From assembly GCA_050248995.1 (NCBI GenBank), contig JBFWRI010000008.1:3214-67213 (forward strand): DNA of 64,000 nucleotides, given 5' to 3'. The stretch comes from Bdellovibrionales bacterium. Its GTDB lineage: Bacteria; Pseudomonadota; Alphaproteobacteria; JAIXQD01. Shown here one piece after another: positions 20,516-38,690 of this stretch (positions are counted from its first letter, which is position 1; the number at the start of each line of letters is the position of its first letter). A program made the translations under genes and the position numbers. The notes under the pieces were generated by a model, which saw only the letters and a program-made list of their open reading frames with translations, was not told where the DNA came from and ran no database searches.

Positions 20516-20554
20516 CCATCCTGTTTAGCAAAGCAGGGCGCAGGATGAAACCCG

Positions 20555-21256
20555 CTAGTTCAGGGCGTTTTTATCGACTTTCGGCCTGTTGATAACCGTA
20601 ACCGAGGCAATGCCCGGCGCTACCGGTACTACAGTGCCGGGTGCGGGTTTGCGGGGTTTATCGCCGAAGATGCGGTCAAGGATCTGTTCTTCCGCGTGCC
20701 GCAACGACGCATTGACATACAGCAGCGCCATCACACCCGGGTTGTTCATGACGCTGATGCTGTCAACTTCTTCGCCGTTTTCATAAACCTTGGTGATGGT
20801 CTCGGGGTAAGAAAGCTCGATGGCCGCTTTCTTCATAAGTGTGCAGGCATGGACAAGGACTTCAAGGTGGCCCTGCGCCTGCTGGCCATTCAGTGGATGC
20901 AGCAAATACATTTCCTTGTCTTCGGCGCGCTGCTGGATGTCTGACAATGTCGCGCGCAGGTCGGCGCCGTTCACAACCATCTCGCCGGTATATACCAAAG
21001 CGATATCGCGCATCTGTTCGAACACGGTTTGCGCAACAGCTGTTGATGACTCTTTTGTCTCTTCGATCACGCCGTTGAAAAATTCGACGTCGCCTTCCGT
21101 CATGCCGTCATATAGGCCGGCCCGCGCCGCCAGCGACAGCATCGAATCCTTAATCTCGTCGACTGACAGTTTGGAGTAGCGGTCCATCATATCGGCGAAG
21201 GCCCGCATGAACCTGCGTGCTGTTTCGTCGGGCTCGATAAAGGTCCAACCGCTCAT
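20555..21256 (-). CDS. hypothetical protein (233 aa)
   Basis: ATG 21256 (MSGWTFIEPDE) chosen because the longer ORF to 21466 would overlap the divergent ETF-QO gene. No family recognised. Confidence 0.5.
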   Translation of the reverse strand: MSGWTFIEPDETARRFMRAFADMMDRYSKLSVDEIKDSMLSLAARAGLYDGMTEGDVEFFNGVIEETKESSTAVAQTVFEQMRDIALVYTGEMVVNGADLRATLSDIQQRAEDKEMYLLHPLNGQQAQGHLEVLVHACTLMKKAAIELSYPETITKVYENGEEVDSISVMNNPGVMALLYVNASLRHAEEQILDRIFGDKPRKPAPGTVVPVAPGIASVTVINRPKVDKNALN

Positions 21257-21341
21257 ATCCAACGAATAGCAAAATGGGTCCGCCCCCGCAACGGACTTGT
21301 TCTTAATGGTAATTAAACCCAAATAATGCTGAGCTTCTGGC

Positions 21342-22961
21342 ATGACGCGCGAAGTGATGGAATACGATGTTCTGGTTGTGGGCGCAGGGCCCAGCGGCTT
21401 GGCGGCAGCCATACGCCTGAAGCAGCTGGCGGCAGCCGCCGGTAAGGAAATATCGGTCTGCATCATCGAGAAGGGCGCCGAGGTTGGTGCACACCTTCTT
21501 AGCGGCGCTGTGCTGGAACCGCGCGCGCTGGAAGAACTGTTTCCCGATTACAAGGAACGCGGTGCGCCACTGGAAACGCCGGTGCAGGAAGACAAGTTTT
21601 ATTTCCTGACCAAAGGCAGCGCTGTGCGTTTGCCGACACCGCCGCAAATGCACAACGAAGGCAACTTCATCATCTCGCTGGGTGCCGTTGCAAAGTGGAT
21701 GGCGCAGCAGGCCGAAGCGCTGGGCGTCGAGATTTACGCGGGCTTTGCCGGTGCCGAGGTTCTGTATGATGAACATGGCCATGTTGTGGGCGTGGCCACC
21801 GGCGACATGGGTGTAGCCAAGGACGGCAGCCACAAGCCCGATTACACGCCGGGTGTTGAACTGCGTGCCAAGCAGACCGTGTTTGCCGAAGGCGCGCGCG
21901 GTTCGCTGACCAAGACGATCATCAAGAAATTCGCGTTAGACGCCGGAAAACAGCCGCAAACGTACTCGCTGGGCGTGAAGGAAATATGGGAAATTGCGCC
22001 TGAAAAGTTCAGGGCTGGGCGCGTTATTCACACGATTGGCTGGCCGCTGGACAGCAGCACATATGGCGGCGGCTGGTGTTATCACTTTGGCGCCAACAAG
22101 GTCAGCATCGGTTTTGTGACCGGGCTTGATTACACAAATCCTTATCTGTCGCCGTACGAAGAAATGCAGCGTTATAAGACGCACCCGCTGTTTGCTGAAT
22201 TGCTGAAGGGTGGGCGACGCATCAATTACGGCGCACGCGCAATTGTGACTGGCGGCTTGCAGGCATTGCCGAAGCTGACATTCCCCGGTGGCTTGCTGGT
22301 GGGCGACACCGCAGGGTTCCTGAACGTACCGAAGATCAAGGGCAACCATACGGCAATGAAGTCGGGCATTCTGGCGGCCGAGGCGATTTTCGAGCAGATA
22401 TTCAACAGCGACGGGTTGGGCGAAGTCGTCAGTTATGCGCAGCGTTTCGAGCGGTCATGGCTGATGAACGAGCTGAGCCGCGTGCGCAATATCAAACCGG
22501 CGTTCAAGTGGGGCCTGTGGGCCGCACTTATCTATGGTGCAATCGACACTTATATATTGCGTGGGCGCGCGCCGTGGACATTGCCCACCAAGGCCGTGCA
22601 CACAACGCTGAAAAAAGCCAAGGATGTGAAGCCAATTGTGTATCCGAAGCCGGATGGCGTGCTGACGTTCGACCGCCTGACCAGTGTTTCACTAACCAAC
22701 ACCTTCCACGCCGAAGACCAGCCCGTGCACCTGCAGTTGGTGCGGGGCGGCGCCGTGATGGTGGACGTGAACAACAAGGTGTATGACTCGCCCGAGACCC
22801 GCTATTGCCCCGCCGGGGTGTACGAGTTTGTTGACGGTAAATTCCATATCAATGCGCAGAACTGCATTCACTGCAAAACCTGCGACATCAAAGACCCGAC
22901 GCAGAATATCAACTGGGTTGTGCCGGAAGGCTCGGGCGGCCCCAACTACGGCGAGATGTAA
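21342..22961 (+). CDS. electron-transfer flavoprotein:ubiquinone oxidoreductase
   Basis: FAD motif YDVLVVGAGPSGLAAA; C-terminal 4Fe-4S segment CPAGVY ... NAQNCIHCKTCDIKDP; 539 aa. Confidence 0.92.
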   Translation: MTREVMEYDVLVVGAGPSGLAAAIRLKQLAAAAGKEISVCIIEKGAEVGAHLLSGAVLEPRALEELFPDYKERGAPLETPVQEDKFYFLTKGSAVRLPTPPQMHNEGNFIISLGAVAKWMAQQAEALGVEIYAGFAGAEVLYDEHGHVVGVATGDMGVAKDGSHKPDYTPGVELRAKQTVFAEGARGSLTKTIIKKFALDAGKQPQTYSLGVKEIWEIAPEKFRAGRVIHTIGWPLDSSTYGGGWCYHFGANKVSIGFVTGLDYTNPYLSPYEEMQRYKTHPLFAELLKGGRRINYGARAIVTGGLQALPKLTFPGGLLVGDTAGFLNVPKIKGNHTAMKSGILAAEAIFEQIFNSDGLGEVVSYAQRFERSWLMNELSRVRNIKPAFKWGLWAALIYGAIDTYILRGRAPWTLPTKAVHTTLKKAKDVKPIVYPKPDGVLTFDRLTSVSLTNTFHAEDQPVHLQLVRGGAVMVDVNNKVYDSPETRYCPAGVYEFVDGKFHINAQNCIHCKTCDIKDPTQNINWVVPEGSGGPNYGEM

Positions 22962-23088: not shown

Positions 23089-23124
23089 AGAAAAACCCCG
23101 CCGGTGAGGGCGGGGTTTCTTTTG
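23089..23124. terminator. bidirectional rho-independent terminator
   Basis: A-run, stem CCCCGCC / GGCGGGG with a 6-nt loop, then a T-run. Lies between the convergent ETF-QO and porin genes. Confidence 0.8.
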
Positions 23125-23160: not shown

Positions 23161-24633
23161 TTAGAACGACGGGCGCACGGTGCCCCAGTCGAAGCTCTTT
23201 TCGCGGCCTGTTACGCCGTTGCGATCAGCTTGCAGTTTCAGCGTAAACTGGACAAAGAAGCGATCGGTGTCGTTAAACGGCGATCCATCGGCGGCGTTGA
23301 AGGAACCGAAGCCTGTATCCATCGTAACCCAGCTGCCGAGTTCCTGTTTATAGGTGACATTCCATTCGTCACCATAATCAGCGTCGTTGGTTTCTGCGCC
23401 AAAGTCATGCCATTCAAAGCGCAGCTTGGCGTCGTTGAAAAGGTTGCAGGTCGGCCAAATATCATCGACCTTATAGCCGAAGCTGACAGAACGGTCGACC
23501 AGACCCTCAGGGATGATGACGCCAGTAGTGATGGCATCGGTCAGCCCGTTGTGGCGGCTTAGGCCGGTATTGCTGGCCCACGGCGTCGTGACGGACGTGG
23601 TGTTGTCCCCCTCGAACACTTCATATCCGAACTGTGTGAACAGGCGGCCTGCCATAAAGTTCGGCGTGTACCACAGGCCGGGCTTCGCCATGTAGTAGTT
23701 GAGGCTGTAGTCGTTCGGGTTGGTACCGGCATCGGTCTGACGTGCATATGACAGGTCTAGCTTGAATGCAAATGGATCCAGACCCTTGTCCAGCAGGTTC
23801 AGCGGCAGGTCTGTCTTGGTGCGCAGGCCGTATGTGTTCGAGCTGAGGAAGTTTTCATCATCCATATCTACGATATAGCCAAATGCGCTTGCCCGTGTGT
23901 ATGGGATAAGGCCGGTGCCGAAGTTGAACAGGTGTGAATCGCTGTTCTGGATACCATCGGCGTTTTCATGACCAATGTGATTGCGACGCGCATCTACATA
24001 TGAATAGCGGAAGTCGACGGCCTGACCGAAGGACAGGCTGCCGTAGGCGGCATCATAATTGCTGCGGTTTTGGCGCCAGTCGGCAGCACCGATCCAGCGG
24101 CCATCGTCAAAATTGAGTGTCTGGCGGCCAACGCGGGTCTCAAATAGCGTGCCGTGCGGGCCCTTCAGCACGTCAATATTGCTGAGATCGAATTCGCGGA
24201 CATAGCCGATGTAGGCTTCACTGACTTCCATCGTCGCGGGGTCGAGGATAGTGGAGCGGGTACCGCCGAGGCTATTAACGCCGTTGGCGTATCTGTCGCC
24301 AAAAGGCACTATAACGCTTTCCACAGCACCGCGAGCATACAGGCCGCGCACTGGCAGGGTGGTTATGCCGAGCTTGGCGCCGAGAGTATTGGCATCAGAA
24401 CCGAGCAATCCTTCCTGCTCGGCATTTTCATAACGGGCACGCGCTTCAAGGTCGACCTTTAGTTCGGTAAGAGAGCGCAGGATGTCGGTGTTGCGCAATT
24501 CTTCAGCCGAGAAGGTGGTGACGGGCACAGGTGTATCGCTAATCGTTTGATGCCGGGCAGGGGCTGCATAAGCGGGGGTTGCGGCCAGCGATGTAAGTAC
24601 TATTAGGGTAGTGGCGAGGAATTGTTTGCTCAT
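23161..24633 (-). CDS. outer-membrane beta-barrel protein, alginate-export/AlgE-like porin family (paralogue 1, 490 aa)
   Basis: Signal peptide ending PAYA; C-terminal aromatic residue (PSF). Motifs ARARYEN and GRQTLNFDDGRWIGAADWRQNRSNYD resemble the alginate-export barrel signature as I recall it. Confidence 0.6.
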   Translation of the reverse strand: MSKQFLATTLIVLTSLAATPAYAAPARHQTISDTPVPVTTFSAEELRNTDILRSLTELKVDLEARARYENAEQEGLLGSDANTLGAKLGITTLPVRGLYARGAVESVIVPFGDRYANGVNSLGGTRSTILDPATMEVSEAYIGYVREFDLSNIDVLKGPHGTLFETRVGRQTLNFDDGRWIGAADWRQNRSNYDAAYGSLSFGQAVDFRYSYVDARRNHIGHENADGIQNSDSHLFNFGTGLIPYTRASAFGYIVDMDDENFLSSNTYGLRTKTDLPLNLLDKGLDPFAFKLDLSYARQTDAGTNPNDYSLNYYMAKPGLWYTPNFMAGRLFTQFGYEVFEGDNTTSVTTPWASNTGLSRHNGLTDAITTGVIIPEGLVDRSVSFGYKVDDIWPTCNLFNDAKLRFEWHDFGAETNDADYGDEWNVTYKQELGSWVTMDTGFGSFNAADGSPFNDTDRFFVQFTLKLQADRNGVTGREKSFDWGTVRPSF

Positions 24634-24723
24634 TATGGTCTCCCTGAAAAAATGCTGGTTTGACGCTACGATTTGGATAGTGGGCCGTCAATCTGGAAAA
24701 GCGCCGTTCCTCAGGGAGCTAAA

Positions 24724-24756
24724 GAAAAACCCCGCCGGTGAGGGCGGGGTTTTCTT
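24724..24756. terminator. rho-independent terminator, hairpin identical to 23089-23124
   Basis: aaaaaccccgccggtgagggcggggtttt, downstream (minus strand) of the second porin gene. Confidence 0.8.
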
Positions 24757-24781
24757 AGCTTTTCGCTAAATCAGGCGGAGA

Positions 24782-26002
24782 TTAGATCTTCGCGCTGACT
24801 TCGACGATGAACTTATCCGTATCGGCGCCGAAGGTATCAGCGTCATACGAGAAGAAGTATACACCGGCATTGTAGTGCTTGCCGAAGTCCTTGTTCAGAC
24901 CGACATTCCACTCGGTTCCGAGATCGGCGCCGCCGTTCTCAGCCGTGAAGTCATGCCATTCTGCACAGATGTTCAGGCCGTCAACCCATGGGTTGACCTG
25001 AGCAACTTCAACGTGAGCGCCGACGTACAGGTCTTCAAGACCGACGCCGCCGTTCGACAGGCCGATAACATCAGCACCGCCGTTGAACTTGTGTGCATCC
25101 GAGAACGGAGCCACGATGCCGTTGACGCCATCGGCTTCAGCAACTTCATAGCCAACCTTGGCTGTGAAGCTCTTGTAGCCTACGCCGCCTTCAAGGGCAT
25201 AGTAGTTCAGGTCGTAGCTGGCAGCATTGTCACCAGCATCTTCCTGATTGGCCCATTCAGCCGAGTACAGAGCGCGCCATGCGTTGTCGATGGCGTATTC
25301 ACCCGCACCGCGGACACCCCAGGTGGTGCTGCCTTGAGCGGCGATTTCATCGCTGTCAAGGAAGTAGCCGTAACCTGAAACCGTCAGGAACTTCAGCAGG
25401 TCGGTGCTGACGTTCAGCAGGTGGCTGTCATGCTCGACAGTACCTGTTGTCGCTTCGCTGCCGATGTTGGTGTTCAGCTGGCCAACGTAAGCGTAAGTGG
25501 CTGTGACACCCTTAAGCGCTTTGGTTTGCAACAGAACAGCATCATAGCTGGTGTGGTTCTGACGCCATGTGTCCGAACCAACCCAACGGCCGTTGTCCAT
25601 GTTTTCCAGCGTCTGACGACCGGCACGCAGGGTGCTGTCGAAGTTGCTGTATTGCAGGAAGGCCTGGTTGACTTCGGCTGTTTCCGGATCGGCGACCGTT
25701 GATTGGCCGACCTTGCCGTTGACAGTGTCGTTGTAGTCTTCGTTGAGGATGCCTGACACACCTTCGAATTCGACCATACCGCTTACGCCGTAGAAGTCGC
25801 CGGTGGTGTAGCCAAGACGTGCGCCAGCCGTAAAGGCATTGGCGTCATCCAGTGCGGTGGTGTCAACGTTTTCATAACGAACGCGTGCATCCCCCGACAC
25901 TTTACCTTCCGTGATCGCCTTGGTGAAATCGGTACCGGCGAACGCGGGAGCAGCGGCAACAAGCAGAACGCCCGCAGCAGCCATTACTAGTGTTTTGTTC
26001 AT
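24782..26002 (-). CDS. outer-membrane beta-barrel protein, same family (paralogue 2, 406 aa)
   Basis: ATG 26002 (MNKTLVMAAAGVLLVAAAPAFA) preceded by GGAG. Shares ARVRYEN and GRQTLENMDNGRWVGSDTWRQNHTSYD with paralogue 1. Confidence 0.6.
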   Translation of the reverse strand: MNKTLVMAAAGVLLVAAAPAFAGTDFTKAITEGKVSGDARVRYENVDTTALDDANAFTAGARLGYTTGDFYGVSGMVEFEGVSGILNEDYNDTVNGKVGQSTVADPETAEVNQAFLQYSNFDSTLRAGRQTLENMDNGRWVGSDTWRQNHTSYDAVLLQTKALKGVTATYAYVGQLNTNIGSEATTGTVEHDSHLLNVSTDLLKFLTVSGYGYFLDSDEIAAQGSTTWGVRGAGEYAIDNAWRALYSAEWANQEDAGDNAASYDLNYYALEGGVGYKSFTAKVGYEVAEADGVNGIVAPFSDAHKFNGGADVIGLSNGGVGLEDLYVGAHVEVAQVNPWVDGLNICAEWHDFTAENGGADLGTEWNVGLNKDFGKHYNAGVYFFSYDADTFGADTDKFIVEVSAKI

Positions 26003-26234
26003 GTAAAACTCCACAGTTGGTGAACGGACCAAATTTACGGGCGTGGTTAGAGTCGGTCAATCAACTGCGGATTCATGCAACTTTTCGTGTGATATTCCTG
26101 CCACGATACGCCTGGGGCCAAGTCTGTGGGTTATTCTGAATTCGCAAGCAAATGTATGCACCTAGAGCCACATATTGAAGCATCCGTTTTGTTAACGGTC
26201 CTTTCAAACATTGTTAACAATGCCTTAAGAATCA

Positions 26235-26317
26235 TTCCGGACCTTTAATTAATTCTTCAAATTAAGGGGTTACTCTGGTTCCCGGGAAATGCCTGTTTTT
26301 TGGGGGCGTAAGAGGAA
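26235..26317 (+). promoter_or_regulatory. conserved promoter/leader box, copy 1 (diverged)
   Basis: TTCCGG-N4-TTTAAT-N34-GGGAAATGCCTG-T6G5, then AAGAGG and the ATG. Confidence 0.5.
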
Positions 26318-28264
26318 ATGAGTAGCTGTCGTCACCACGCATTCGCTTGTGCGCAGGCATTCTGCCTGCTGTTGGCGCTTGTGTGCGTGATATCGCATCC
26401 TGCTGCCGCCCGTGAGGGGGGCAACACCAACGCGCCCGGTCTTGATGTCAGTAAAGTACAGGATAACGTCACGTCGGGCATGCATGTGACGCGCGTGGCG
26501 GGCACTGTTGAGGGCGCCGCTATCGTTGCTGGCGCCAGTGACGTATTGCTAAGCGCCCATGGCAGTGACCGCTACATTGATAATCTGTCCGGTAACAAGA
26601 TGCTGGTTCCGTTCCGCACCGTTGGTGAAATGACCTCATTCTTCAATGGTGTTAGCACGTCGCAGTTCCGCTTTGACTTTTACCGTCCGCAAACCACGCA
26701 GACGGTTGACTACCAGGATGGTGTGTCGGATGTCGCCAATCTGGTATTAGGCCAGTCGACAGAACAAATTGTTACACTGCCTGCGGCGCGCGTTGATACG
26801 CGCAGTGACAACGCCTTCAGCGCCTCGCGCGAAGTACGCCGCAGCCAGGACCTAAATATGGAGCGCAGTGATTGCCGCCGTCCGTACAACCCTTCAACCG
26901 GCCTCGAAGATATGACACAGCCGGCCAATGTCTGCAATGAACATAACTGGGTTGAAACCGTCACCGCCATTTTCACATACAACCCGACGCTGAGGAACAG
27001 CAGCAACCAATCGATTGACAGCCCGAGCCGCAGCGTGCTGTCGACTTCAGCTCGCAGTCTTGCCAGTTCGCTGACCCACCAGTGGTCGCTCAGCTGGGAT
27101 AATTCGGGCAACGCGCCTGCGGTCAGCTATCCTGACCCGCGCGCCTGTCCGCCAAGCTATACGCACGGACAACTTTATTGGGATGTCGCTTCAACTGGCA
27201 ACAGCCGCTCGGCGACAGCTGCAGAACTGTCCGCACTGGGTACGAACGGCGGCATGTGCCCCGAAGGCGTTGAAAGCGCAACGCGTACATGGGATGTCGA
27301 GCGCCGTTACCAGTGTTATGACGCACAATCCTTCCCGCAATCCACCACACGGGATGTGAACGTTGCCTATATCGACGTTGTGTGTAAGGAGCCGGCGGAC
27401 GAAGACGGCACCTGCGGCACGGCGTATGAATTCTACTTCGACCGTTCAACCCCGCCGCCTGCGGCCACCAACCGCACGCTGTGTGCAACCGGCGTAGCCA
27501 CGGCACCCGTGCGTGTGAACGCCGTTACATGGGGCTGGCAGTGCGAAGGCACGGAAACTTCGGCATCGTGCACGGCCATTCGCACCGGCGCTTATCAGTC
27601 CGTTTACTCCGATTGTCGCCCGCCAAACCATGAAACCAATGCGACGATGACTGCACAGCAATGGCAGCAAAGCGGCAGTTACAGGCAATACGTCTGCAAC
27701 GTTGACCGCAACCTGCCGACGAATTCGTACCTGACCCAGTATCAGGCCATCAATTCTGCCGCTGCGCCGAAAAGCTACCCGAGCAACCAGGCTGCGCTGT
27801 ATTCATGCCTGAAGGGAACGAACAATCAGATGCGCTATGTTCTGGGCGGCCGCACGGCCGGTGATGACTGGCACAACGCCAATTACAGAAACTGGGCGCC
27901 GCCTGGATTCCATCGTAATGCTACAGACTATCATCAGTTCTATCTGACCGGCAGCGCCAATGAGTGCGAAGGCTGCGTGGTGCTCCAGATGGTCTATTGC
28001 ACGGACGAGCCGGATTATCCGACCACATGCCCGGCGGCGACAGGATTGTTCTGGTACAACACGCCCTTCCAGCCGCCGTGTGAACCGGAAGTAGAGCCGA
28101 CCTATCATTATGACGGTTCACTGCCAGCAGGTACGCAGTTTGAAAGACGTGCCCTGGGCGACAGCGTGTATATGTGCGGCATGTACGGCCGCTGGACTTA
28201 CGCCAGCCAGCAAGGGAATTATGCGTCGAATAAGCTGGAACAGGAAAACCAAGTTTGCCAGTAG
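26318..28264 (+). CDS. secreted Cys-rich protein, array member 1 (648 aa)
   Basis: Signal peptide ending HPAAA. Diverged half-module GASDVLLSAHGSDRYIDNLSGNKMLVPFRTVGEMTSFFNG aligns with the module of members 2-5. Many Cys residues. CG...LC...WGWQC...SC module at aa 364-420. Confidence 0.7.
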   Translation: MSSCRHHAFACAQAFCLLLALVCVISHPAAAREGGNTNAPGLDVSKVQDNVTSGMHVTRVAGTVEGAAIVAGASDVLLSAHGSDRYIDNLSGNKMLVPFRTVGEMTSFFNGVSTSQFRFDFYRPQTTQTVDYQDGVSDVANLVLGQSTEQIVTLPAARVDTRSDNAFSASREVRRSQDLNMERSDCRRPYNPSTGLEDMTQPANVCNEHNWVETVTAIFTYNPTLRNSSNQSIDSPSRSVLSTSARSLASSLTHQWSLSWDNSGNAPAVSYPDPRACPPSYTHGQLYWDVASTGNSRSATAAELSALGTNGGMCPEGVESATRTWDVERRYQCYDAQSFPQSTTRDVNVAYIDVVCKEPADEDGTCGTAYEFYFDRSTPPPAATNRTLCATGVATAPVRVNAVTWGWQCEGTETSASCTAIRTGAYQSVYSDCRPPNHETNATMTAQQWQQSGSYRQYVCNVDRNLPTNSYLTQYQAINSAAAPKSYPSNQAALYSCLKGTNNQMRYVLGGRTAGDDWHNANYRNWAPPGFHRNATDYHQFYLTGSANECEGCVVLQMVYCTDEPDYPTTCPAATGLFWYNTPFQPPCEPEVEPTYHYDGSLPAGTQFERRALGDSVYMCGMYGRWTYASQQGNYASNKLEQENQVCQ

Positions 28265-28296
28265 AGCTGCCGGGTCTTTGTATAAATATAATTTAA

Positions 28297-28391
28297 AATC
28301 AATACCTTATTATATTCCGGTCTTTTAACGGTTTGTTTTGGTCTGCAGTATAGCCTGACTGTGGGAACTGCCTGTATTTGGGGGGCAATTA
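28297..28391 (+). promoter_or_regulatory. conserved promoter/leader box, copy 2
   Basis: ATCAAT ... TTCCGG-N4-TTTAAC-N33-GGGAACTGCCTG-tattt-GGGGGGCA-N5-GTG. Nearly identical to copy 3 over about 60 nt. Confidence 0.6.
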
Positions 28392-30398
28392 GTGACTCGC
28401 GCTTTCGCACGACCGATGTGGCTTAGGTACTGTCTTCTGGCGGTACTGCTGCTGTGCGCCAGCTTTGCATCAACGGCAGACGCGCGCAGCTGGGACACCT
28501 ATGGCTTTCGCGACAATGAATTAGAGCCGCGCGACCCAATCATTTATCCGGACGATACTTATACGCCGCCTGTGCAAGAGCCCGAACCAACGCCGACACC
28601 GACTCCTGAGCCAGAGCCGACACCAATGCCGACGCAGGATACAGGTGGGGTCATTCCTTCTGTCAGTGAACTTCCACCGCTGGATGAAATTGTCGGCGAC
28701 GGCGCGCAAACAGCCGTTGATTTCGCAGAGGATGTTCTGGATTCCGTCGAAGATATTGCTACGGCCATTCGTGATATGCTGCGCGCGGATGACCGCATTG
28801 ACATTTCAGAGGGTGGTGCGCTGTCGGTCGGTGCACAAAACGTCCTTGTGTACGAACATGGTATTTGCCGCTGGCTGGATAACGAAAGCGTCGGCGCCGA
28901 GCTGCTCGTTCCTTACAGAACGAGTGCCGAATGGCAGGCCTTCCTTGATAACGCGCCCGCCGGCGTGACGCGTGCGGGCTGCTGCCCCGCTGCGACAGCT
29001 ATGCTGACATCATCGGATGGGCAATCGGTCTCATTTGAACTGGATATCGGCCGTGACGGTGCGCTGAACTCGCTGGGCCGCCGCATGCTGAGCCATACGT
29101 TTACGCTGGGTGCTGGCGGCACGGAAACGGTGCGCCAGATTTATGTCTGCACAGGTGATGCATGGGTTGGAGAAGGTGTTGTGCGCACCAGCGACCCTGG
29201 CGACGAAACAACCGAACCGACCACTGAGGAAAATGATCCTGTAACACCTGATGGCCCGGCTGACGTTTGCTATCCGGCGTCGTCACGCGATGTGAAGGTG
29301 ACATGGACGGGTCAATGGCGTCGTGGATGGAGCGGCAACGCCACGTTCACCAAGAGCGGTATCGGCAGGGTGCAGCAAGTCTATATGAATGCTGATGGTA
29401 CCATTACCAGCAACGGTAGTGGCGACCGCAGTACGGCGATCTTCAATCTTGAAGAACCAATCGCCGATGCTGACGTGAAGGTTACAGCCGTATACGGTAG
29501 CTATAGCGGTGACCTGAACGGCGGCCCTGGCCCCTTCAGCCGCGGCGAAGCCAAGGTTGCAGAGTTCCATATTGCTTCAGGGCAGAATATCAACCTGAGC
29601 AATACGCCAGCCACCGGCATCTTCTATTCGCGCCAGCGCATGGGCCGTCCGTTCATGATGACGAACAACGCAATCTATATGCCGTCGTATGATAGTTCGC
29701 CGAACCTGAAGAGTCTGACGGTTGAATATACAAAGGACACAGGTGCGGCCGAAGTCGATCCGAGCCTGATCCCAGCCTGTACACCGATGCCTGAGAATTT
29801 CCAAGTTGGTATCCATGCCTATGACGGCGACAGGTTCGAAGTTGAATTCGACCTTAAAACCGGCACGGCGCAGCTGATCTTCCTGAACTACACACGTCGC
29901 GGCACTGAATATGGCGTCGGTAAGGGATGGTATGCCAGCATTCCGACGCTGAGCTATGATGACTTGTGCGAGGGCAGCTCGACAATGGATATCGGCTCGG
30001 CCAATGCGCGGTTGTGGATTTCGGGCGATAGTGTGGACGGATCGGTTGACTACATCGTCACCCAAAAACCGACGTGCGAGAACGGGCTTGTCGGCCGCGT
30101 AGCGGTTGATGACACAACGAACGGCTGGGGTAAATATCGCCACCCGGTCAGTGGCCTGTTTACGTTCCCGCTGACACGTGCGTGCCAGTGTTCAAATGCA
30201 TGCACAGCAGACCAGGAGATCTGGGGTGGAGCATGTGTGTCGAAATGCCCAACCGGCCAAGTGCGCAATACTTCGACAGGCGTATGTTATACACCGGTCC
30301 CAGTTGAATCTAACCCCTGCGAGTCGAAGCCTTGGCTTTGTGAGGATGGTGGCCGCGTTGATAGTGATGGGGAAAACATCTATCAAAACCTGCAGTAA
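28392..30398 (+). CDS. secreted Cys-rich protein, array member 2 (668 aa)
   Basis: GTG start 6 nt after the G6 tract. Signal peptide ending STADA. Pro/Thr/Glu linker. Conserved module at aa 137-264. EGF-like Cys-rich C-terminus ending in the KPWLCED motif. Confidence 0.7.
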   Translation: MTRAFARPMWLRYCLLAVLLLCASFASTADARSWDTYGFRDNELEPRDPIIYPDDTYTPPVQEPEPTPTPTPEPEPTPMPTQDTGGVIPSVSELPPLDEIVGDGAQTAVDFAEDVLDSVEDIATAIRDMLRADDRIDISEGGALSVGAQNVLVYEHGICRWLDNESVGAELLVPYRTSAEWQAFLDNAPAGVTRAGCCPAATAMLTSSDGQSVSFELDIGRDGALNSLGRRMLSHTFTLGAGGTETVRQIYVCTGDAWVGEGVVRTSDPGDETTEPTTEENDPVTPDGPADVCYPASSRDVKVTWTGQWRRGWSGNATFTKSGIGRVQQVYMNADGTITSNGSGDRSTAIFNLEEPIADADVKVTAVYGSYSGDLNGGPGPFSRGEAKVAEFHIASGQNINLSNTPATGIFYSRQRMGRPFMMTNNAIYMPSYDSSPNLKSLTVEYTKDTGAAEVDPSLIPACTPMPENFQVGIHAYDGDRFEVEFDLKTGTAQLIFLNYTRRGTEYGVGKGWYASIPTLSYDDLCEGSSTMDIGSANARLWISGDSVDGSVDYIVTQKPTCENGLVGRVAVDDTTNGWGKYRHPVSGLFTFPLTRACQCSNACTADQEIWGGACVSKCPTGQVRNTSTGVCYTPVPVESNPCESKPWLCEDGGRVDSDGENIYQNLQ

Positions 30399-30489
30399 CA
30401 TACGCTTACACAGTCAAGTCAGCCTGCTGCCATAGGTTGTTTTGAATCACAGAATTATGAAATATCATTAAGTATCAAGCAATTAGTCG

Positions 30490-30566
30490 TTCCGACTCTT
30501 TAACGGTTTGTTTTGGTCTGTAGTATAGCCTGACTGTGGGAAATGCCTGATTGGGGGGCAATAGAC
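30490..30566 (+). promoter_or_regulatory. conserved promoter/leader box, copy 3
   Basis: TTCCG-N5-TTTAAC-N33-GGGAAATGCCTG-att-GGGGGGCA-N6-GTG. Confidence 0.6.
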
Positions 30567-32255
30567 GTGTCGGGGCTGACAGTAATAAAAATAATGTGTT
30601 TGCGCTGCATGACGCTCGCTGCACTTTGTGTAGTGCTTGCTGCCCCTGCTTATGCCACCCCGCCGCGCGAATTCGAGCCGATTGATCCCTATGACAGACC
30701 GTTCCCCGAGATTCCCGATATTCAGCTGCCGTCCACCGACGGTGTGGGCAACACGGTTGGCGGTACCGCTACCGATGCTAACGAACAGGTCGTGGAGCCT
30801 GTTGTTGAAACTGTCAAAGATCTACTGACGGACACCAGCCAGATTGCTTCAGCAGCTGCTACTGCCCTGCGCCGTGATTTAATTGCAGCACTGGGTGTTG
30901 ACATCGCAAATGGTGGCGTTCTGCCTTTTGGCGTCAGCAATGCGCTGGTTGACCGCCATGGCATGTGCCGCTGGTTGGATAATGCCAGCAGTGTCGATTA
31001 CTTTGTGCCTCTTCGCACTGCTGCGGAATGGGCCGCTTTCGTTAACAACGCGCCACCCAACGTTACGCGCGCTGCCTGCTGTCCGGCGCGCAGTGTTACG
31101 CTGGTGGCGTCCGACGGGCAGTCGGTCAGCTTCAACCTTGATACGGGGCGCGAAGGCGCAACATCCGAACTGGGCGTGCAATCGCTCAGTCATGTCTTTA
31201 CATTGGCCGATTCATCGACCGAAACCGTCAGCGAAGTTTATGTCTGCCAGGGCGAAGTATGGACGGGCCAAGGCGTGACACGCGATGGCGAGGAGACAGA
31301 AGAAGTCCCTGGCGATTGGGCAAACGCTGGCTGTGGTGGCGCAATTTCGACAGGCTTTAACTGTGTATCAGCAGAACCTGTATTCACGACTTGTCCAGCG
31401 GGTACGATGGCGCAGGAATCGACCTTGCCGATGATGGATTATGACTGCCCCGGTGAAGACGGCTACATCCTTGCGCCAGTAGCAGGCCGCTGTGTAGCCG
31501 ATGCGTCATGCGCAGTGCCTGAAGAGCCCGAGGTGGTGGATGGCTGCTTTGTAGGTCAGGACCTGTTGTTTATTCAGGATGTGACGGGGTCGTACAAGGA
31601 CGATATTCCAAACCTGAATAGCGCCTTTAGCGCGCTGGCTACGGATCCGCGCGTTAGCGAGTGGGGCTTCGGGGTTATGACTTTCGGGCCTCAAAATGAC
31701 ACGCATAATAACTTTATGAGTATGGCAGATAGCAAGTTAGGCAGCTTCAGTTACCGCAAACTTCTGCAACCAAGCAAGTTGCGAGGCAATTCGAAGTCGC
31801 AGATGCAGGCCATGGAGTATGCGTTGAAGACTTATACAAGGACAAGCGGCCGCCTTGCTGTTGTATTGGCAACAGATGATGCTGACTTTGGTAACGATTT
31901 CCTGAGCAGCCGACTTCCTGCAGCCACCCTGCTGCGCGCAGCCAATGCCGAGCTATTCGTGCTGCAAGGTACGCTACCGGGTAAAGAAACCGATGTGCGC
32001 CTCTTTTATCAGAAGTTCATGAACGACAACCAGATCAACGGCCGCATCGTGCCGCTGACGGCGAACTCGGCGAACCTTTACGACAAGATCATCGAAACCG
32101 TGTGCGATGGATCGGCGCCACCGCCACCACCGCCGCCGCCGCTGAATACGACGCCTGACCCTGATACCGGGACCAGCATATGCGATATGAAGCCGTGGAT
32201 GTGCGAAGACCTGGGTAGCGTTGCCGACCGATTTAGTGGTTATTCTATCTACTAA
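30543..32255 (+). CDS. secreted protein, array member 3 (570 aa from ATG 30543): conserved module + Cys-rich linker + integrin-beta-like VWA domain
   Basis: By analogy with members 2 and 4 the real start is probably GTG 30567. Signal peptide ending APAYA. Module at aa 120-244. VWA-like region with DLLFIQDVTGSYKDD, WGFGVMTFG and AVVLATDD. Poly-Pro tract, then KPWMCED. Confidence 0.7.
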   Translation: MPDWGAIDVSGLTVIKIMCLRCMTLAALCVVLAAPAYATPPREFEPIDPYDRPFPEIPDIQLPSTDGVGNTVGGTATDANEQVVEPVVETVKDLLTDTSQIASAAATALRRDLIAALGVDIANGGVLPFGVSNALVDRHGMCRWLDNASSVDYFVPLRTAAEWAAFVNNAPPNVTRAACCPARSVTLVASDGQSVSFNLDTGREGATSELGVQSLSHVFTLADSSTETVSEVYVCQGEVWTGQGVTRDGEETEEVPGDWANAGCGGAISTGFNCVSAEPVFTTCPAGTMAQESTLPMMDYDCPGEDGYILAPVAGRCVADASCAVPEEPEVVDGCFVGQDLLFIQDVTGSYKDDIPNLNSAFSALATDPRVSEWGFGVMTFGPQNDTHNNFMSMADSKLGSFSYRKLLQPSKLRGNSKSQMQAMEYALKTYTRTSGRLAVVLATDDADFGNDFLSSRLPAATLLRAANAELFVLQGTLPGKETDVRLFYQKFMNDNQINGRIVPLTANSANLYDKIIETVCDGSAPPPPPPPPLNTTPDPDTGTSICDMKPWMCEDLGSVADRFSGYSIY

Positions 32256-32293
32256 TCAGTACAATACTATTATAAATCAATTAGTTATAATAT

Positions 32294-32371
32294 TTCCGGG
32301 TATTTAACATTTAATTTTATCTATCCCTGTATTCTCAGTATGGGAATTGCCTGTTTTTGGGGGGCATAGGG
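32294..32371 (+). promoter_or_regulatory. conserved promoter/leader box, copy 4
   Basis: TTCCGG-N4-TTTAAC-N33-GGGAATTGCCTG-ttttt-GGGGGGCA-N5-GTG. Confidence 0.6.
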
Positions 32372-34027
32372 GTGTTGGGTTTCAAGGCCATATCTGTAAC
32401 CGCGTTACGCTGCATGGCAGCAGCCTTCCTTTGCATGCTCGTTTTTGCGTTGCCCGCCCATGCAGTTGAACAGCCGGGCGGAGACGATCCGCTTGTGCGC
32501 AACAGCCTGCAGCAGGATCGTAATATGGATATCGGCAACGGCGGCGCCCTGAGTGCTGGCGCGCAGAACGTTCTGGTCGATAAGTGGGGCCAGTGCCGTT
32601 GGCTGGATAACGCCGATGACCAGATTTACCTTGTACCCTATCGCAGCAGTGCCGAGTGGGCCGCGTTCCTGAATAATGCTCCGTCACTGATTACGCGCGC
32701 CCGCTGCTGCCCAGCGCGGACCATCACGTTGTCGGCATCCGACGGACAGTCAGTGAACTTTGATATTGATACGGGCCGTGAAGGCGGTGCCGGAGTGCTG
32801 GGCGCACGGTCATTTAGTCATACCTTCACACTGGCCGATTCATCCACCGAGACTGTCAGTGAAGTCTATATCTGCCAGAACGAAGTATGGACCGGTCAGG
32901 GCCCGACTACGGTAACGACACCCGGCGATTGCGGCGCCTATAGCCATGGCGATACATGGTGGGTTGATGGTGCCACGGAACACACGGATACGGATATCGT
33001 TTGCCCGGACGGCCAGGCTGGTATTCACCGCGATTACTTCCAGATGCAAAATCAATATATCTGTAACAGCGGTTCATCGGACCCGACCGGAGTGACGCAA
33101 ACAGTTGATGTGGGTGGCGACGAGGATATCTGTCCGCCATCGACCGACTTTGACGAATTCGTTTTTGCCAGCAGCTGCGAAGCGGTGATGGGTGCCGTGA
33201 AGTCGTGTGTCAGCGATGGCACATCTTGCGTAACGCCAAAAAATGGCCCGGGCATCGTGCAACCGATGAATCGCGCATCGCACGATGGCATGTGGTGCAG
33301 TTCGATCGCCTCGCACGATACGGGCCTGGATGGTGCCAAGTCGGTATTCGATCTGGCGGATGTGATGAGCCGTGCGCCCGCGGGCCCTGTGCTGGTTATC
33401 TTGCCGGTTGACCCATGGGGCGGCCTGCGTACGAAGGAGTACGCCCACCATGTGGCGAGCCCGACAATGCCAAGTTACATTTATGATGTTGGATATCCTT
33501 CGCCTACGTACGGCGCTACGGGAAGCGTAGCGGCAATCAAGATGGTAATCACCGACCGCAACGTCAGTCAGTCGAAAACCATCACCCAGTCAACCGTGGC
33601 TCTGGTCAGCGGTCGTCCGGAAGACTTGTCGCAGAACATCACCATCAAGCTTAATTACGATGGCAGCACCAAGCAAATGGCGATCGAGTATGGCCGCAGC
33701 GGCCGCTGGATGAAGAACAACTTCACGCCGTGGCAGAGCCAGCTTGAGAAGGGTTGGGGTAACGGCAAGGTCTGGAGCGAAGTGCGCGTCATGGCGCCGG
33801 TGCGCCCTGTGTGTGGTGCCGGGTATTGCGGCAGCATCCCGCCCCTTGAGGCGCGTTGTGTCCTTGGCACGCCCAGCACAGTGACAACGTATAATATTCC
33901 GCCGGCCGAGCAGGTTCTGTTTGGCCCGACCGTTCGCCACACGTGGACGTGTATGGGCCCTGAGGGCGATACGGCGTCGTGCGTATCGCAGGATGGCGGC
34001 CTGTGCGGCATGAGCTTTGGTATGTAG
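32357..34027 (+). CDS. secreted Cys-rich protein, array member 4 (556 aa from TTG 32357; likely GTG 32372)
   Basis: Signal peptide ending LPAHA. Module at aa 58-182. C-terminal CG..C...WTC...SC module at aa 486-543. Confidence 0.7.
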   Translation: MGGIGVLGFKAISVTALRCMAAAFLCMLVFALPAHAVEQPGGDDPLVRNSLQQDRNMDIGNGGALSAGAQNVLVDKWGQCRWLDNADDQIYLVPYRSSAEWAAFLNNAPSLITRARCCPARTITLSASDGQSVNFDIDTGREGGAGVLGARSFSHTFTLADSSTETVSEVYICQNEVWTGQGPTTVTTPGDCGAYSHGDTWWVDGATEHTDTDIVCPDGQAGIHRDYFQMQNQYICNSGSSDPTGVTQTVDVGGDEDICPPSTDFDEFVFASSCEAVMGAVKSCVSDGTSCVTPKNGPGIVQPMNRASHDGMWCSSIASHDTGLDGAKSVFDLADVMSRAPAGPVLVILPVDPWGGLRTKEYAHHVASPTMPSYIYDVGYPSPTYGATGSVAAIKMVITDRNVSQSKTITQSTVALVSGRPEDLSQNITIKLNYDGSTKQMAIEYGRSGRWMKNNFTPWQSQLEKGWGNGKVWSEVRVMAPVRPVCGAGYCGSIPPLEARCVLGTPSTVTTYNIPPAEQVLFGPTVRHTWTCMGPEGDTASCVSQDGGLCGMSFGM

Positions 34028-34033
34028 GAAATC

Positions 34034-35038
34034 ATGAAGCGGTTCATGACACGGAAAAACATTATAGCTGTGCCCAACCTGTCTGGTGTGGCGTTACTGC
34101 TTCTGTACAGCATTTTTGTTGGTTCCATTGCGCACGCTCAGGAGCAGCAAGGGCTTTCTAATTACCCCGTACGCAATGATCTGCAACAAGACCGCAATAT
34201 GAGCATCAGCAACGGTGGTGCATTGAGCGTTGGTGCCCAGAACGTTCTGGTCGACCAATGGGGCCAGTGCCGCTGGCTGGATAACGCCGATAACAAGGTT
34301 TACCTTGTGCCCTACCGCAGCAGCACTGAATGGGCTGCGTTCCTGAATCACGCGCCTGCACTTATTACCCGTGCGCGATGCTGCCCGGCCCGCACCGTGA
34401 GTTTGACAGCATCAGACGGCCAGTCGGCGAGTTTTGATCTTGATACGGGCCGTGTCGGCGCAGGCAATATGCTGGGTGTACGTTCGCTAAGCCACGTCTT
34501 CACGTTGGCAGATGCGTCCACCGAGACCGTTAGCGAGATTTTCGTCTGCCAGGATGGTGTATGGACCGGGCAGGGTGTTGTGCGCGATGGCGAACCGGTT
34601 GAAGAGCCTGAAGTGCCTGAAACCCCCGATGAGCCGGTGCTGCCGGAAGAAGACCCACCGGTTATCGAGGCAGAAACCTGTGTGCCGACCAATGAGGAGT
34701 GGAATTTCTTTGGCTGGTATGAAAGCTGGGAAGGCGCCTGTGCTGAGCGCGTACGCGCCGCTGCTGAACTGGGATCACTGACGCCTGCAGAGAGGGTAGA
34801 GCTTGCCACCTATTCAGTTGGGCGCATCGTGCGGATGTTCATTGATCTGCCGCCGTGCCCTGCCGAAGGTGTTGCCATCAGTACCGGGGCCTGTATCACA
34901 CGCGTCACCGTCAGGGACTCGCGGACGATTGGCAACATGGGCCCGATGCCGTGGTATTGCTCGGTGAAAGTCAGGTCATGCAGCGGCCCGCCTGAGCTGC
35001 GTGCGTATGAGTCTCCCTTCATGGAACTGGCAGATTAA
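34034..35038 (+). CDS. secreted protein, array member 5 (334 aa)
   Basis: Starts 6 nt after member 4 and has no leader box of its own. Signal peptide ending SIAHA. Module at aa 57-181, closest to member 4. Confidence 0.7.
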   Translation: MKRFMTRKNIIAVPNLSGVALLLLYSIFVGSIAHAQEQQGLSNYPVRNDLQQDRNMSISNGGALSVGAQNVLVDQWGQCRWLDNADNKVYLVPYRSSTEWAAFLNHAPALITRARCCPARTVSLTASDGQSASFDLDTGRVGAGNMLGVRSLSHVFTLADASTETVSEIFVCQDGVWTGQGVVRDGEPVEEPEVPETPDEPVLPEEDPPVIEAETCVPTNEEWNFFGWYESWEGACAERVRAAAELGSLTPAERVELATYSVGRIVRMFIDLPPCPAEGVAISTGACITRVTVRDSRTIGNMGPMPWYCSVKVRSCSGPPELRAYESPFMELAD

Positions 35039-35053
35039 ATCTTGTGACAGAAA

Positions 35054-35088
35054 TAAAAAGGCCGGGAATTTCTTCCCGGCCTTTTTTG
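35054..35088. terminator. bidirectional rho-independent terminator
   Basis: A-run, stem GGCCGGGAA / TTCCCGGCC with loop TTTC, then T6. Lies between convergent array member 5 and nrdB. Confidence 0.85.
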
Positions 35089-38564: not shown

Positions 38565-38690
38565 GTAGGCAGACAACCGGAGCGGGGCACAGGCTGATTC
38601 TGGTCATGAATCAGGGGGCGGGTGAGTCGCCAGCGTCTGGCGAGCACGCTGTGCCGTGCTAAGGTGCGCGCAGTTATAAAGGAGACCCCG

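What the first reader, a model, noticed from the sequence alone, without database searches (positions are those of the whole stretch)
23161..35088. Divergent locus: two AlgE-like outer-membrane barrels facing an array of five secreted Cys-rich paralogues with one shared N-terminal module and different C-terminal domains
Seen in sequence: two paralogous beta-barrel genes on the minus strand (23161-24633, 24782-26002) diverge from five plus-strand genes (26318-35038), all with signal peptides. Members 2-5 share a ~125-aa module: GGALSVGAQNVLV--WG-CRWLDN------LVPYR-S-EWAAFLN-AP---TRA-CCPAR---L-ASDGQS-SF-LDTGR-G---LG---LSH-FTLAD-STETVSE-YVCQ---WTGQG, with four invariant Cys. It lies at nt 28800-29183, 30900-31274, 32528-32902 and 34202-34576. 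Member 1 keeps a diverged half of it (26513-26662). Downstream of the module each protein differs: an EGF-like Cys-rich tail, an integrin-beta-like VWA domain, CG..WxWxC modules, or a short acidic tail. Inference: a constant N-terminal targeting or docking module with swappable C-terminal heads is the logic of polymorphic surface adhesins or toxins. However, there are no interleaved immunity-like small ORFs and no recognisable secretion ATPase, so it fits no described system I know. The adjacent barrels could be the export or anchoring partners. I do not recognise the module as any named family.
Basis: partly seen in the sequence, partly recalled or inferred. Interest (0 to 1): 0.85.

Follow-up and report, generated by a model that had tools for sequence, protein, structure and literature searches.

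The report
Secreted mosaic proteins, undescribed N-terminal module
Five neighbouring genes in an uncultured bacterium encode exported, cysteine-rich proteins that share a previously undescribed N-terminal module and carry shuffled C-terminal parts, most likely binding proteins, and the two neighbouring membrane pores look like ordinary porins rather than proven partners.

Summary
Two paralogous outer-membrane barrel genes (34% identical) face five tandem genes for signal-peptide proteins that share a ~130-aa module.

- **Member 1:** it carries the whole module, not half, with large insertions and without the four Cys.
- **The module:** it matches no Pfam, NCBIfam or PDB sequence. A confident model (pLDDT 95) has no Foldseek match in PDB or BFVD.
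- **Family size:** exhaustive HMMER finds 465 representative proteins. A minority of the best 150 carry the whole module. The rest share only its first ~55 aa, placed just after a signal peptide and followed by TSP1, FISUMP, Kelch, RCC1, BNR or SPRY domains.
- **Heads:** they are recombined between genomes.
- **Barrels:** they belong to PF13372, but their profile matches general porins, not AlgE. Module genes lie beside the barrel orthologue in four of five readable loci, all close relatives with the same gene order. Elsewhere module genes sit on conjugative elements without a barrel.

Best reading (0.5): diversifying, Sec-exported, disulfide-stabilised binding proteins on a constant base module. 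Barrel-coupled display is possible but weak (~0.12–0.15). A toxin system is unsupported. Interest is moderate.

The parts
23161..24633 (-). Barrel 1: 490-aa outer-membrane beta-barrel protein of the PF13372 (alginate-export) family, with a signal peptide (..PAYA/AP) and a C-terminal Phe
   Evidence: ORF. Pfam PF13372 at 1.1e-9 and 38 bits (cut-off 25.2), covering the N-terminal 130 aa only. 34% identical to barrel 2. No PDB sequence match.
23095..23111 (-). Terminator-like hairpin after barrel 1, identical to the one after barrel 2
24782..26002 (-). Barrel 2: 406-aa paralogue (the ORF could also start at TTG 26032). It is the copy with orthologues in related genomes.
   Evidence: orthologues 57-67% identical, annotated PF13372; profile matches porin-like PDB chains, not AlgE.
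24729..24745 (-). Terminator-like hairpin after barrel 2
26003..26317 (.). Divergent intergenic region between barrel 2 and member 1. It contains the leader copy of member 1 (26234-26310).
26318..28264 (+). Member 1: 648 aa with a signal peptide. The whole module (26507-27025) carries insertions and has no module Cys. The head has 18 Cys, including one 'CG..WxWxC' unit and a 'CPP..HG..W' unit.
   Evidence: The C-terminal part of the head is shared with P0026 (E 5e-58).
28315..28389 (+). Conserved leader upstream of member 2
28392..30398 (+). Member 2: 668 aa. Signal peptide, Pro/Glu/Thr-rich linker, module (28803-29198), beta-rich head block, Cys-rich tail.
   Evidence: head block shared with P0006, P0014 and P0015. 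No PDB match.
30490..30564 (+). Conserved leader upstream of member 3, 86% identical to the member 2 leader. It overlaps the first ATG of the ORF.
30543..32255 (+). Member 3: 570-aa ORF with a probable start at GTG 30567. Module at 30903-31295. The head has D-x-T-G-S and ATDD motifs (VWA-like by motif only), a poly-Pro stretch, and a C-terminal 'KPWMCED' tail shared with member 2.
32294..32368 (+). Conserved leader upstream of member 4
32357..34027 (+). Member 4: 556-aa ORF with a probable start at GTG 32372. Module at 32534-32917. The head has a 'C..HG..W' unit, a block shared with P0006, and one 'CG..WxWxC' unit.
34034..35038 (+). Member 5: 334 aa. It starts 6 nt after the stop of member 4 and has no leader of its own. 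Module at 34205-34597, then an acidic linker and a ~100-aa Cys-containing end shared with P0009.
35055..35086 (.). Hairpin terminator between member 5 and the convergent ribonucleotide reductase small-subunit gene

Best explanation
The five genes encode a diversifying family of Sec-exported, disulfide-stabilised mosaic proteins that act outside the cytoplasm as ligand-binding (adhesin-like) proteins.

Each protein has four parts in order:
- a signal peptide;
- an optional disordered linker;
- a constant ~130-aa two-lobed module of an undescribed fold;
- a set of Cys-rich head blocks that are exchanged by recombination between paralogues and between genomes.

The heads would give the specificity. 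The constant module would supply a function common to all members. The most likely such function is holding the protein at the producer's envelope, or assembling it, by binding one conserved partner.

Genes 1-4 each carry their own copy of a conserved leader, so they are probably transcribed separately and regulated alike. Gene 5 is probably co-transcribed and translationally coupled with gene 4, since it starts 6 nt after gene 4's stop and has no leader of its own.

The two barrel genes are porin-family genes that belong to the conserved backbone of this chromosomal site. A functional tie to the array is not needed to explain the data.

Shown here: the paralogy, the export signals, the novelty of the module, the head shuffling and the distribution. 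Inferred: extracellular binding, and the anchoring or assembly role of the module.
For: **Paralogy and module.**

**Export signals.** Hydrophobic signal-peptide-like N-termini in all five window proteins and in 138 of the best 150 family representatives. The module starts at a median residue 47.

**No known family or fold.** Searches find no family. The model has pLDDT 95.2 and pTM 0.81 and no Foldseek match (best E 0.28 in PDB, 0.04 in BFVD, TM below 0.3).

**Family size.** 465 representatives at E<=1e-3.

**Binding-type heads in relatives.** TSP1 (8 of 121), FISUMP (4), RCC1, Kelch, BNR, SPRY and an endostatin-like domain sit behind the same N-terminal sub-domain.

**Head shuffling.**

**Disulfides.** The Cys pattern and its co-loss in the member-1 subfamily fit two disulfides.

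**No catalytic or toxin domain.** No such family is detected at E<=1, and there are no immunity-like ORFs.

**Leader.** A conserved leader lies upstream of genes 1-4 only.
Against: - No homologue has been studied experimentally.
- The heads of the five window proteins themselves match no recognised binding domain. The binding-type domains are seen in relatives only.
- Localisation (surface, released or periplasmic) is not known, and no route across the outer membrane has been identified.
- The role of the constant module rests on analogy.
- The near-constant adjacency to a barrel in the closest relatives could still mean a functional link.
Confidence: 0.5

Rival explanations
1. Barrel-coupled display. 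The PF13372 barrels export or anchor the module proteins. The constant module (or the linker before it) docks in or on the barrel and presents the variable heads on the cell surface.
For: A module gene lies divergently and directly upstream of the barrel-2 orthologue in the window, in GCA_041447075.1, in L008 and in L014. That is four of five readable loci. The window has a second barrel paralogue.
Against: - These loci share overall gene order (UDG, ETF-QO, barrel, array, RNR) and are related (ETF-QO 75-83% identical), so the adjacency may be inherited.
- L009 keeps the barrel but has no module gene in 14.5 kb.
- Module genes in L001, L003, L004 and L013 have no barrel within reach.
- Proteins with only the N-terminal sub-domain in L005, L007, L011 and L012 have no barrel nearby.
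- Barrel homologues at 35-42% identity occur in Marinobacter, Sphingopyxis, and Nitrospirae and Rickettsiales MAGs.
- The barrel profile matches porin-like PDB chains, not a protein translocator, and there is no POTRA or plug domain.
- The leader element is absent from the barrel genes.
Confidence: 0.15
2. Periplasmic or envelope-internal proteins. The family stays in the periplasm, for example binding peptidoglycan or envelope polymers, and is never surface-exposed.
For: Only a Sec signal is evident, and no outer-membrane translocation signal or system is seen in the window. Disulfide-rich proteins fold in the periplasm.
Against: Heads in relatives (TSP1, Kelch, RCC1, FISUMP, SPRY) are typical of extracellular recognition. 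Rapid head turnover between close genomes suits interaction with variable external targets. One family member (L012) sits among giant surface-type proteins.
Confidence: 0.15
3. Cargo of conjugative elements that acts in cell-to-cell contact during mating, comparable in role to TraN. The chromosomal array would be a domesticated copy.
For: L001 carries two family genes beside VirD4/TraG, ArdC and two DUF736 genes. L003 has DUF736 next to P0014. Two to three of 121 family representatives hit NCBIfam TraN models, best 6e-35.
Against: - The window locus is chromosomal, about 20 kb from dnaA, with no transfer genes.
- There is no tblastn match in 72,556 plasmids.
- None of the 44 representatives re-scanned one by one hit TraN.
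- The window proteins do not match TraN: the only hit is member 1 at E 0.86.
Confidence: 0.08
4. Polymorphic toxin or effector family with a constant trafficking domain and variable toxic tips.
For: The general layout: constant N-terminus, variable C-terminus, tandem paralogues.
Against: - No toxin or enzyme domain in any member of the window.
- No downstream immunity-like ORFs; the gaps are 6-144 nt.
- No T5b, T6 or T7 component nearby.
- The proteins have Sec signal peptides and many disulfide Cys, unlike most delivered toxins.
Confidence: 0.05

Closest known systems
Multi-paralogue secreted adhesin or binding-protein families with a conserved N-terminal part and exchangeable C-terminal tips. 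From my own knowledge: the mosaic adhesive fibres of Bdellovibrio, and phage receptor-binding proteins with a constant anchor and variable tips.
   Same: A constant N-terminal part, variable and recombining C-terminal parts, several paralogues per genome, and binding-type heads in relatives.
   Different: There are no coiled-coil or trimeric fibre signatures. The proteins are Sec-exported. The constant module has no sequence or fold match to any of those anchors.
PF13372 'Alginate_exp' outer-membrane barrels (AlgE of Pseudomonas is the founding member)
   Same: Barrel 1 passes the Pfam threshold, and orthologues of barrel 2 are annotated PF13372. Both have a signal peptide and a size that fits a large barrel.
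   Different: There are no alginate genes nearby. There is no detectable sequence match to AlgE structures. The family profile instead matches a 'major outer membrane protein' (2.3e-5) and an Acinetobacter porin (0.02). NCBIfam gives a weak 'Opr family porin' hit.
Two-partner secretion (TpsA/TpsB)
   Same: An outer-membrane barrel gene next to genes for large exported proteins with a conserved N-terminal domain.
   Different: No TPS domain, no Omp85/POTRA barrel, and divergent rather than operonic order.
TraN mating-pair stabilisation proteins
   Same: Cys-rich exported proteins. Some family members are on conjugative elements. A few distant members hit TraN models.
   Different: The window proteins do not match TraN (E 0.86 only). 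There is no plasmid match. The locus is chromosomal.
FISUMP / DUF1566-type lectin-like domains
   Same: A local motif resemblance: FVPT.T..EW..F against W(H/R)(I/L)PT..EW. FISUMP domains follow the N-terminal sub-domain in 4 of 121 relatives.
   Different: The profile-profile comparison is not significant (probability 0.4%). The sub-domain is only ~55 aa.

Membership tests
PF13372 alginate-export (AlgE-type) barrel | Pfam model matched above the curated cut-off | tested here: met
   Barrel 1 scores 38.1 bits against a cut-off of 25.2, over the N-terminal 130 aa only. Barrel 2 gave no hit itself, but its 59-65% identical orthologues carry PF13372.
PF13372 alginate-export (AlgE-type) barrel | Detectable similarity to the solved AlgE structure | tested here: not met
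   phmmer with both barrels and hmmsearch with a 30-sequence profile find no AlgE chain. The best matches are porin-like chains.
PF13372 alginate-export (AlgE-type) barrel | Linkage to alginate or other exopolysaccharide synthesis genes | tested here: not met
   The neighbours are UDG, ETF-QO, the five module genes and ribonucleotide reductase. A GT4 gene lies next to the orthologue only in L009 and L010.
Polymorphic toxin systems | C-terminal toxin domain | tested here: not met
   No Pfam or NCBIfam toxin or enzyme family at E<=1.
Polymorphic toxin systems | Immunity gene immediately downstream of each toxin gene | tested here: not met
   The intergenic gaps are 127, 144, 101 and 6 nt, with no ORF.
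Polymorphic toxin systems | Dedicated secretion system (T5b, T6SS, T7SS and the like) | tested here: not met
   None in the 64-kb window. The rest of the genome was not available.
Two-partner secretion | TPS domain in the cargo and an Omp85/POTRA transporter | tested here: not met
   No such Pfam hits. The barrel belongs to PF13372.
TraN | Match to TraN family models above threshold | tested here: not met
   The only hit is member 1 at E 0.86 and 8 bits against a cut-off of 416.
VWA / integrin beta-I-like domain (head of member 3) | Match to a VWA family model or to a solved VWA domain | tested here: not met
   No Pfam hit at E<=1 and no PDB sequence hit.
VWA / integrin beta-I-like domain (head of member 3) | MIDAS motif D-x-S/T-x-S plus downstream T and D | tested here: inconclusive
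   'DVTGS' and 'ATDDAD' are present in the sequence.
Thrombospondin type 1 repeat proteins | TSP1 Pfam match | tested here: not met
   None in the five window proteins. Present in 8 of 121 relatives, including the syntenic P0008 and P0009.
New family defined here (N-terminal module) | Match to the module profile directly behind a signal peptide | tested here: met
   All five window proteins match, E 5e-30 to 2e-53. There are 465 representatives in 1.84 billion proteins, with a median start at residue 47.

The most novel reading that the evidence does not exclude
The constant module is the recognition or docking element of an undescribed outer-membrane display route. A porin-family (PF13372) barrel would hold or pass the N-terminal linker and module, and present interchangeable Cys-rich heads on the cell surface of these alphaproteobacteria. 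The N-terminal ~55-aa sub-domain would be a general 'handle' reused across many phyla.
Probability: 0.12. Interest if true: 0.85.

Novelty: new variant of a known kind. Interest (0 to 1): 0.5.

Why it matters
- **An uncharted domain.** The locus defines a protein module with a confidently predicted structure that matches no family or solved fold. The module heads several hundred clusters of exported proteins from uncultured bacteria, so it is a clear candidate for a new domain family.
- **Diversification visible between genomes.** In one small clade the genes form arrays at a fixed chromosomal site, and their heads are reshuffled between close relatives. This is the signature of molecules that meet a changing outside target, such as a host, prey, matrix or other cells.
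- **How to find the function.** Identifying what the constant module binds would show how these proteins are held or assembled. It would also settle whether the neighbouring porin-family barrel takes part.
- **The low end.** If the barrel has no role, the finding is still a useful new domain of unknown function, but not a new system.

Tried and rejected
**Searches that found nothing or failed**
- The word-indexed protein search with the module alignment (A2) and with an 82-sequence alignment of the N-terminal sub-domain (A6) returned nothing. That index does not reach this family; only the exhaustive HMMER search did.
- The genome-collection scan gave one locus (L001), the metagenome scan three, and the viral scan none.
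- tblastn of the module against plasmids and phages found no match.
- Foldseek against PDB and BFVD found no match. The first structure model, from 4 sequences, was too poor to use (pLDDT 65).
- PDB sequence searches of four heads and of both barrels gave nothing useful.

**Hypotheses tested and dropped**
- That the N-terminal sub-domain is a reduced FISUMP/DUF1566 lectin-like domain: hhalign probability 0.4%.
- That a recalled F-plasmid TraN C-terminal sequence matches the family: no hit.

**Questions left open**
- Which family members give the TraN hits: 44 proteins re-scanned, none found.
- The name of the organism: cluster look-ups gave no named relatives. I infer Alphaproteobacteria only from GcrA and DUF736 contexts of relatives, the Caulobacteraceae MAG, and a 273-aa flagellin.
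- An RNA structure for the leader: the predicted pairs are invariant, with no covariation, and Rfam finds nothing.
- Literature: two searches found no description of the family, and one preprint on Cys-rich repeats was not relevant.

Full report
**1. What is in the sequence**

- On the minus strand lie two outer-membrane barrel genes: 23161-24633 (490 aa) and 24782-26002 (406 aa).
- On the plus strand lie five genes: 26318-28264, 28392-30398, 30543-32255, 32357-34027 and 34034-35038.

The barrels are paralogues, 34% identical over 423 aa with E 4e-57. All seven products begin with signal-peptide-like segments.

Members 2-5 share a module with 57 of 139 columns invariant, including four Cys. 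A profile built from the module and its relatives places it at 28803-29198, 30903-31295, 32534-32917 and 34205-34597. The same profile finds the whole module in member 1 as well (26507-27025, E 5e-30). There it is split by insertions and lacks all four Cys. No further copy exists in the 64-kb window.

**2. Local anatomy**

The window is chromosomal and close to the replication origin genes. dnaA lies at 55559-57004, gyrB at 49525-51954 and SMC at 11517-15029. The locus sits between UDG/ETF-QO and ribonucleotide reductase. No tRNA or Rfam element is present.

Genes 1-4 are each preceded by a copy of a conserved 75-110 nt leader, at 26234-26310, 28315-28389, 30490-30564 and 32294-32368.
- The copies before genes 2 and 3 are 86% identical, which is more than the coding modules (61-64%).
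- Its core, GGGAANTGCCTG, occurs exactly only at these four places in the window.
- The leader overlaps the first in-frame start codons of the ORFs of members 3 and 4. The likely starts are therefore GTG 30567 and GTG 32372, which give two very similar signal peptides.
- A hairpin over the G-rich ribosome-binding stretch is predicted, but without covariation.

Gene 5 starts 6 nt after gene 4 and has no leader. Both barrel genes end in an identical terminator hairpin.

**3. The module is an undescribed domain**

No sequence library recognises the five proteins.
- None of them matches a Pfam or NCBIfam family at E<=1, apart from low-complexity noise.
- The module profile finds nothing meaningful among PDB sequences.
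- The word-indexed protein search failed.

The exhaustive HMMER search of 1.84 billion representative proteins did reach the family. It found 465 at E<=1e-3, 32 at 1e-10 and 16 at 1e-30.
- The top four hits are the window's own proteins.
- About 30 to 50 of the best 150 cover the full module.
- The others match only its first ~55 aa, with the consensus IDxHGxCRxVxNxxxxxxFVPTxTxxEWxAFxxNxPxGVxxxxC.
- In 138 of the best 150 a hydrophobic N-terminus precedes the domain, and the domain starts at a median residue 47.
- Pfam and NCBIfam scans of 121 of these proteins show no model covering the N-terminal domain itself.

With a 32-sequence alignment, AlphaFold2 gives a confident model (pLDDT 95.2, pTM 0.81). 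It has an N-terminal lobe of four strands, a helix and a strand, followed by a six-stranded beta lobe. Foldseek finds no match in the PDB (best E 0.28, TM below 0.3) or in BFVD (best E 0.04). The two lobes could not be searched separately, so a match for one lobe alone is not excluded.

The Cys pattern suggests two disulfides.
- The member-1-like protein of L001 keeps only the first two Cys.
- Member 1 has lost all four.
- The short form of the domain keeps the first pair.
- This points to C27-C64 within the N-lobe and C65-C120 stapling the lobes. This pairing is inference.

**4. The heads are exchangeable**

The C-terminal regions of the five proteins are unrelated to one another, except for short shared units. 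Searching them against the family set shows a mosaic:

| Window head | Also found in |
|---|---|
| Member 2, residues 10-184 | P0006 (same protein as the member 4 block), P0014, P0015 |
| Member 4, residues 76-362 | P0006 (same protein as the member 2 block) |
| Member 4, first ~105 residues of the head | P0013 |
| Member 1, C-terminal 270 aa | P0026 (a 'Bdellovibrionales' MAG by its NCBI label) |
| Member 5, end of the head | end of P0009 |
| Member 3 | nowhere else in the set |

Relatives carry TSP1 repeats (8 of 121), FISUMP (4), RCC1, Kelch, BNR, SPRY and endostatin-like domains behind the same N-terminal domain.

In P0008 and the L014 protein, a Cys-rich 'C..HG..W..CP.G' unit sits before the module. 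The module is therefore usually, but not always, the first domain.

The window heads match no PDB sequence. The VWA reading of member 3 rests only on the motifs DVTGS and ATDD.

**5. Are the barrels partners?**

*What the barrels are.* Barrel 1 passes the PF13372 threshold, and orthologues of barrel 2 are annotated PF13372. Neither barrel, nor a 30-sequence family profile, matches AlgE in the PDB. The profile instead matches a 'major outer membrane protein' (2.3e-5) and an Acinetobacter porin (0.02). NCBIfam gives a weak 'Opr family porin' hit. Homologues at 35-42% identity occur in Marinobacter, Sphingopyxis, and Nitrospirae and Rickettsiales MAGs.

*Loci with the barrel-2 orthologue (57-67% identical).*

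| Locus | Module genes beside the barrel |
|---|---|
| Window | five |
| GCA_041447075.1 (gene order UDG, ETF-QO, 160-aa gene, alkaline phosphatase, barrel, then P0009, P0006, P0008, then RNR) | three |
| L008 | at least two, both member-1-like |
| L014 | at least one |
| L009 | none in 14.5 kb |
| L010 | cannot be read: contig ends 216 bp upstream |

These genomes are related (ETF-QO 83% identical in L008, 75% in L009 and L010) and share the surrounding gene order. The adjacency follows phylogeny.

*Module genes without a barrel.*
- L001 is a Caulobacteraceae MAG. Its two family genes lie beside VirD4/TraG, ArdC, two DUF736 genes and a Peptidase_S74 protein, which is the context of a conjugative element.
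- L003 has a DUF736 gene next to P0014.
- L013 has GcrA and MazEF as neighbours.
- L004 and L002 show no barrel within their short contigs.

*Short-form proteins.* L005, L007, L011 and L012 have no barrel nearby. L012 is a 38% GC, 1.5-Mb contig with PrgI/TraC-like genes and giant SPRY/DUF7483 proteins.

*Conclusion.* The barrel link is possible within one clade, but it is not a property of the family.

**6. Most likely mechanism**

I read the array as a diversifying set of Sec-exported, disulfide-stabilised binding proteins. The exchangeable heads recognise different external ligands. The constant module provides a shared function, most plausibly retention at the envelope or assembly through one conserved partner. 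I give this a confidence of about 0.5.

The parts that are shown are the paralogy, the export signals, the novelty of the module, the head shuffling and the phylogenetic distribution. The binding function and the role of the module are inferred, from the domain types in relatives and from the lack of any enzyme, toxin or immunity feature.

Rival readings:
- barrel-coupled display, 0.15;
- a periplasmic role, 0.15;
- contact proteins linked to conjugative elements, 0.08;
- polymorphic toxins, 0.05.

**7. Comparison with known systems**

The layout resembles adhesin or receptor-binding families with a constant N-terminal anchor and variable tips. The module itself matches none of them.

| Family | Outcome |
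|---|---|
| AlgE-type exporter | Family model met; similarity to AlgE and polysaccharide gene context not met |
| Two-partner secretion | No TPS domain, no Omp85/POTRA barrel |
| Polymorphic toxin system | No toxin domain, no immunity gene, no secretion system |
| TraN | E 0.86 only |
| FISUMP / DUF1566 lectin-like domain | Profile-profile probability 0.4% |

**8. Novelty and score**

The module is a new domain family with no recognisable fold relative. The kind of system, a paralogous family of exported mosaic binding proteins, is known. I therefore rate it a new variant of a known kind, with interest 0.5.

The most novel reading still open is a porin-family barrel acting as a display partner for the module. 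I give it a probability of about 0.12, and it would be of high interest if true.

**9. Limits**

- The organism is an unnamed MAG. Alphaproteobacteria is inferred only from relatives and from a 273-aa flagellin.
- The TraN hits among distant relatives could not be traced.

Noticed in passing
window 26234-26310, 28315-28389, 30490-30564, 32294-32368: A conserved 75-110 nt leader precedes genes 1-4 of the array. The core GGGAANTGCCTG...TTGGGGGG occurs exactly only at these four sites, and the copies before genes 2 and 3 are 86% identical. A predicted hairpin covers the G-rich ribosome-binding stretch, but there is no covariation and no Rfam match. The leader implies later start codons for member 3 (GTG 30567) and member 4 (GTG 32372).
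   Followed up: partly
window 23095-23111 and 24729-24745: An identical terminator hairpin (ACCCCGCCGGTGAGGGC followed by a T-run on the minus strand) follows both barrel genes, although the proteins are only 34% identical. These are the only two copies in the window.
   Followed up: partly
window 20555-21466 (-): A 303-aa ORF without any Pfam match fills the gap between UDG and ETF-QO and overlaps the ETF-QO start by 125 nt. The syntenic contig of GCA_041447075.1 has only 47 nt there. It may be an insertion or a spurious ORF.
   Followed up: no
window 43785-44606 and 45624-47804: A short flagellin (273 aa) lies near a TPR plus GT41-type glycosyltransferase. From my own knowledge this pairing recalls flagellin glycosylation (FlmG-type) in Caulobacter, and it hints at an alphaproteobacterial host.
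   Followed up: no
window 49525-57004: dnaA and gyrB lie on one strand, with two or three ORFs of dnaN and recF size between them. The array is therefore about 20 kb from the probable replication origin region.
   Followed up: no
window 7297-8853 (-) and 58533-59990 (+): Two large ORFs (518 and 485 aa) have no Pfam match.
   Followed up: no
window 18874-19716, 38622-39539, 41982-42845: Three paralogous family-3 solute-binding protein genes are scattered around the locus.
   Followed up: no
L001 (Caulobacteraceae MAG) 988-12804: Two family genes sit within a conjugative-element context: VirD4/TraG, ArdC, two DUF736 genes and a Peptidase_S74 tail-fibre-like protein. The second gene (9806-11206) ends in three ~45-aa repeats, 'WDENWTGNNFWCDAGY...NNANWYEC'.
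   Followed up: partly
L012 (1.5-Mb contig, 38% GC) 5178-22502: A protein with only the N-terminal sub-domain (P0067, with SPRY and DUF7483) lies among giant surface-type proteins (one over 4000 aa), a Peptidase_S74 protein and PrgI/TraC-like genes. The organism may be a small-genome, possibly monoderm one.
   Followed up: no
family representatives (alignment A3): Two to three of 121 family representatives hit NCBIfam TraN models (best E 6e-35). Re-scanning 44 candidates one by one did not find which ones.
   Followed up: partly
GCA_041447075.1 syntenic locus; L009 and L010: In relatives the barrel orthologue is flanked by an alkaline phosphatase gene (GCA_041447075.1) or a GT4 glycosyltransferase gene (L009, L010). 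This may hint at what the porin normally serves.
   Followed up: no
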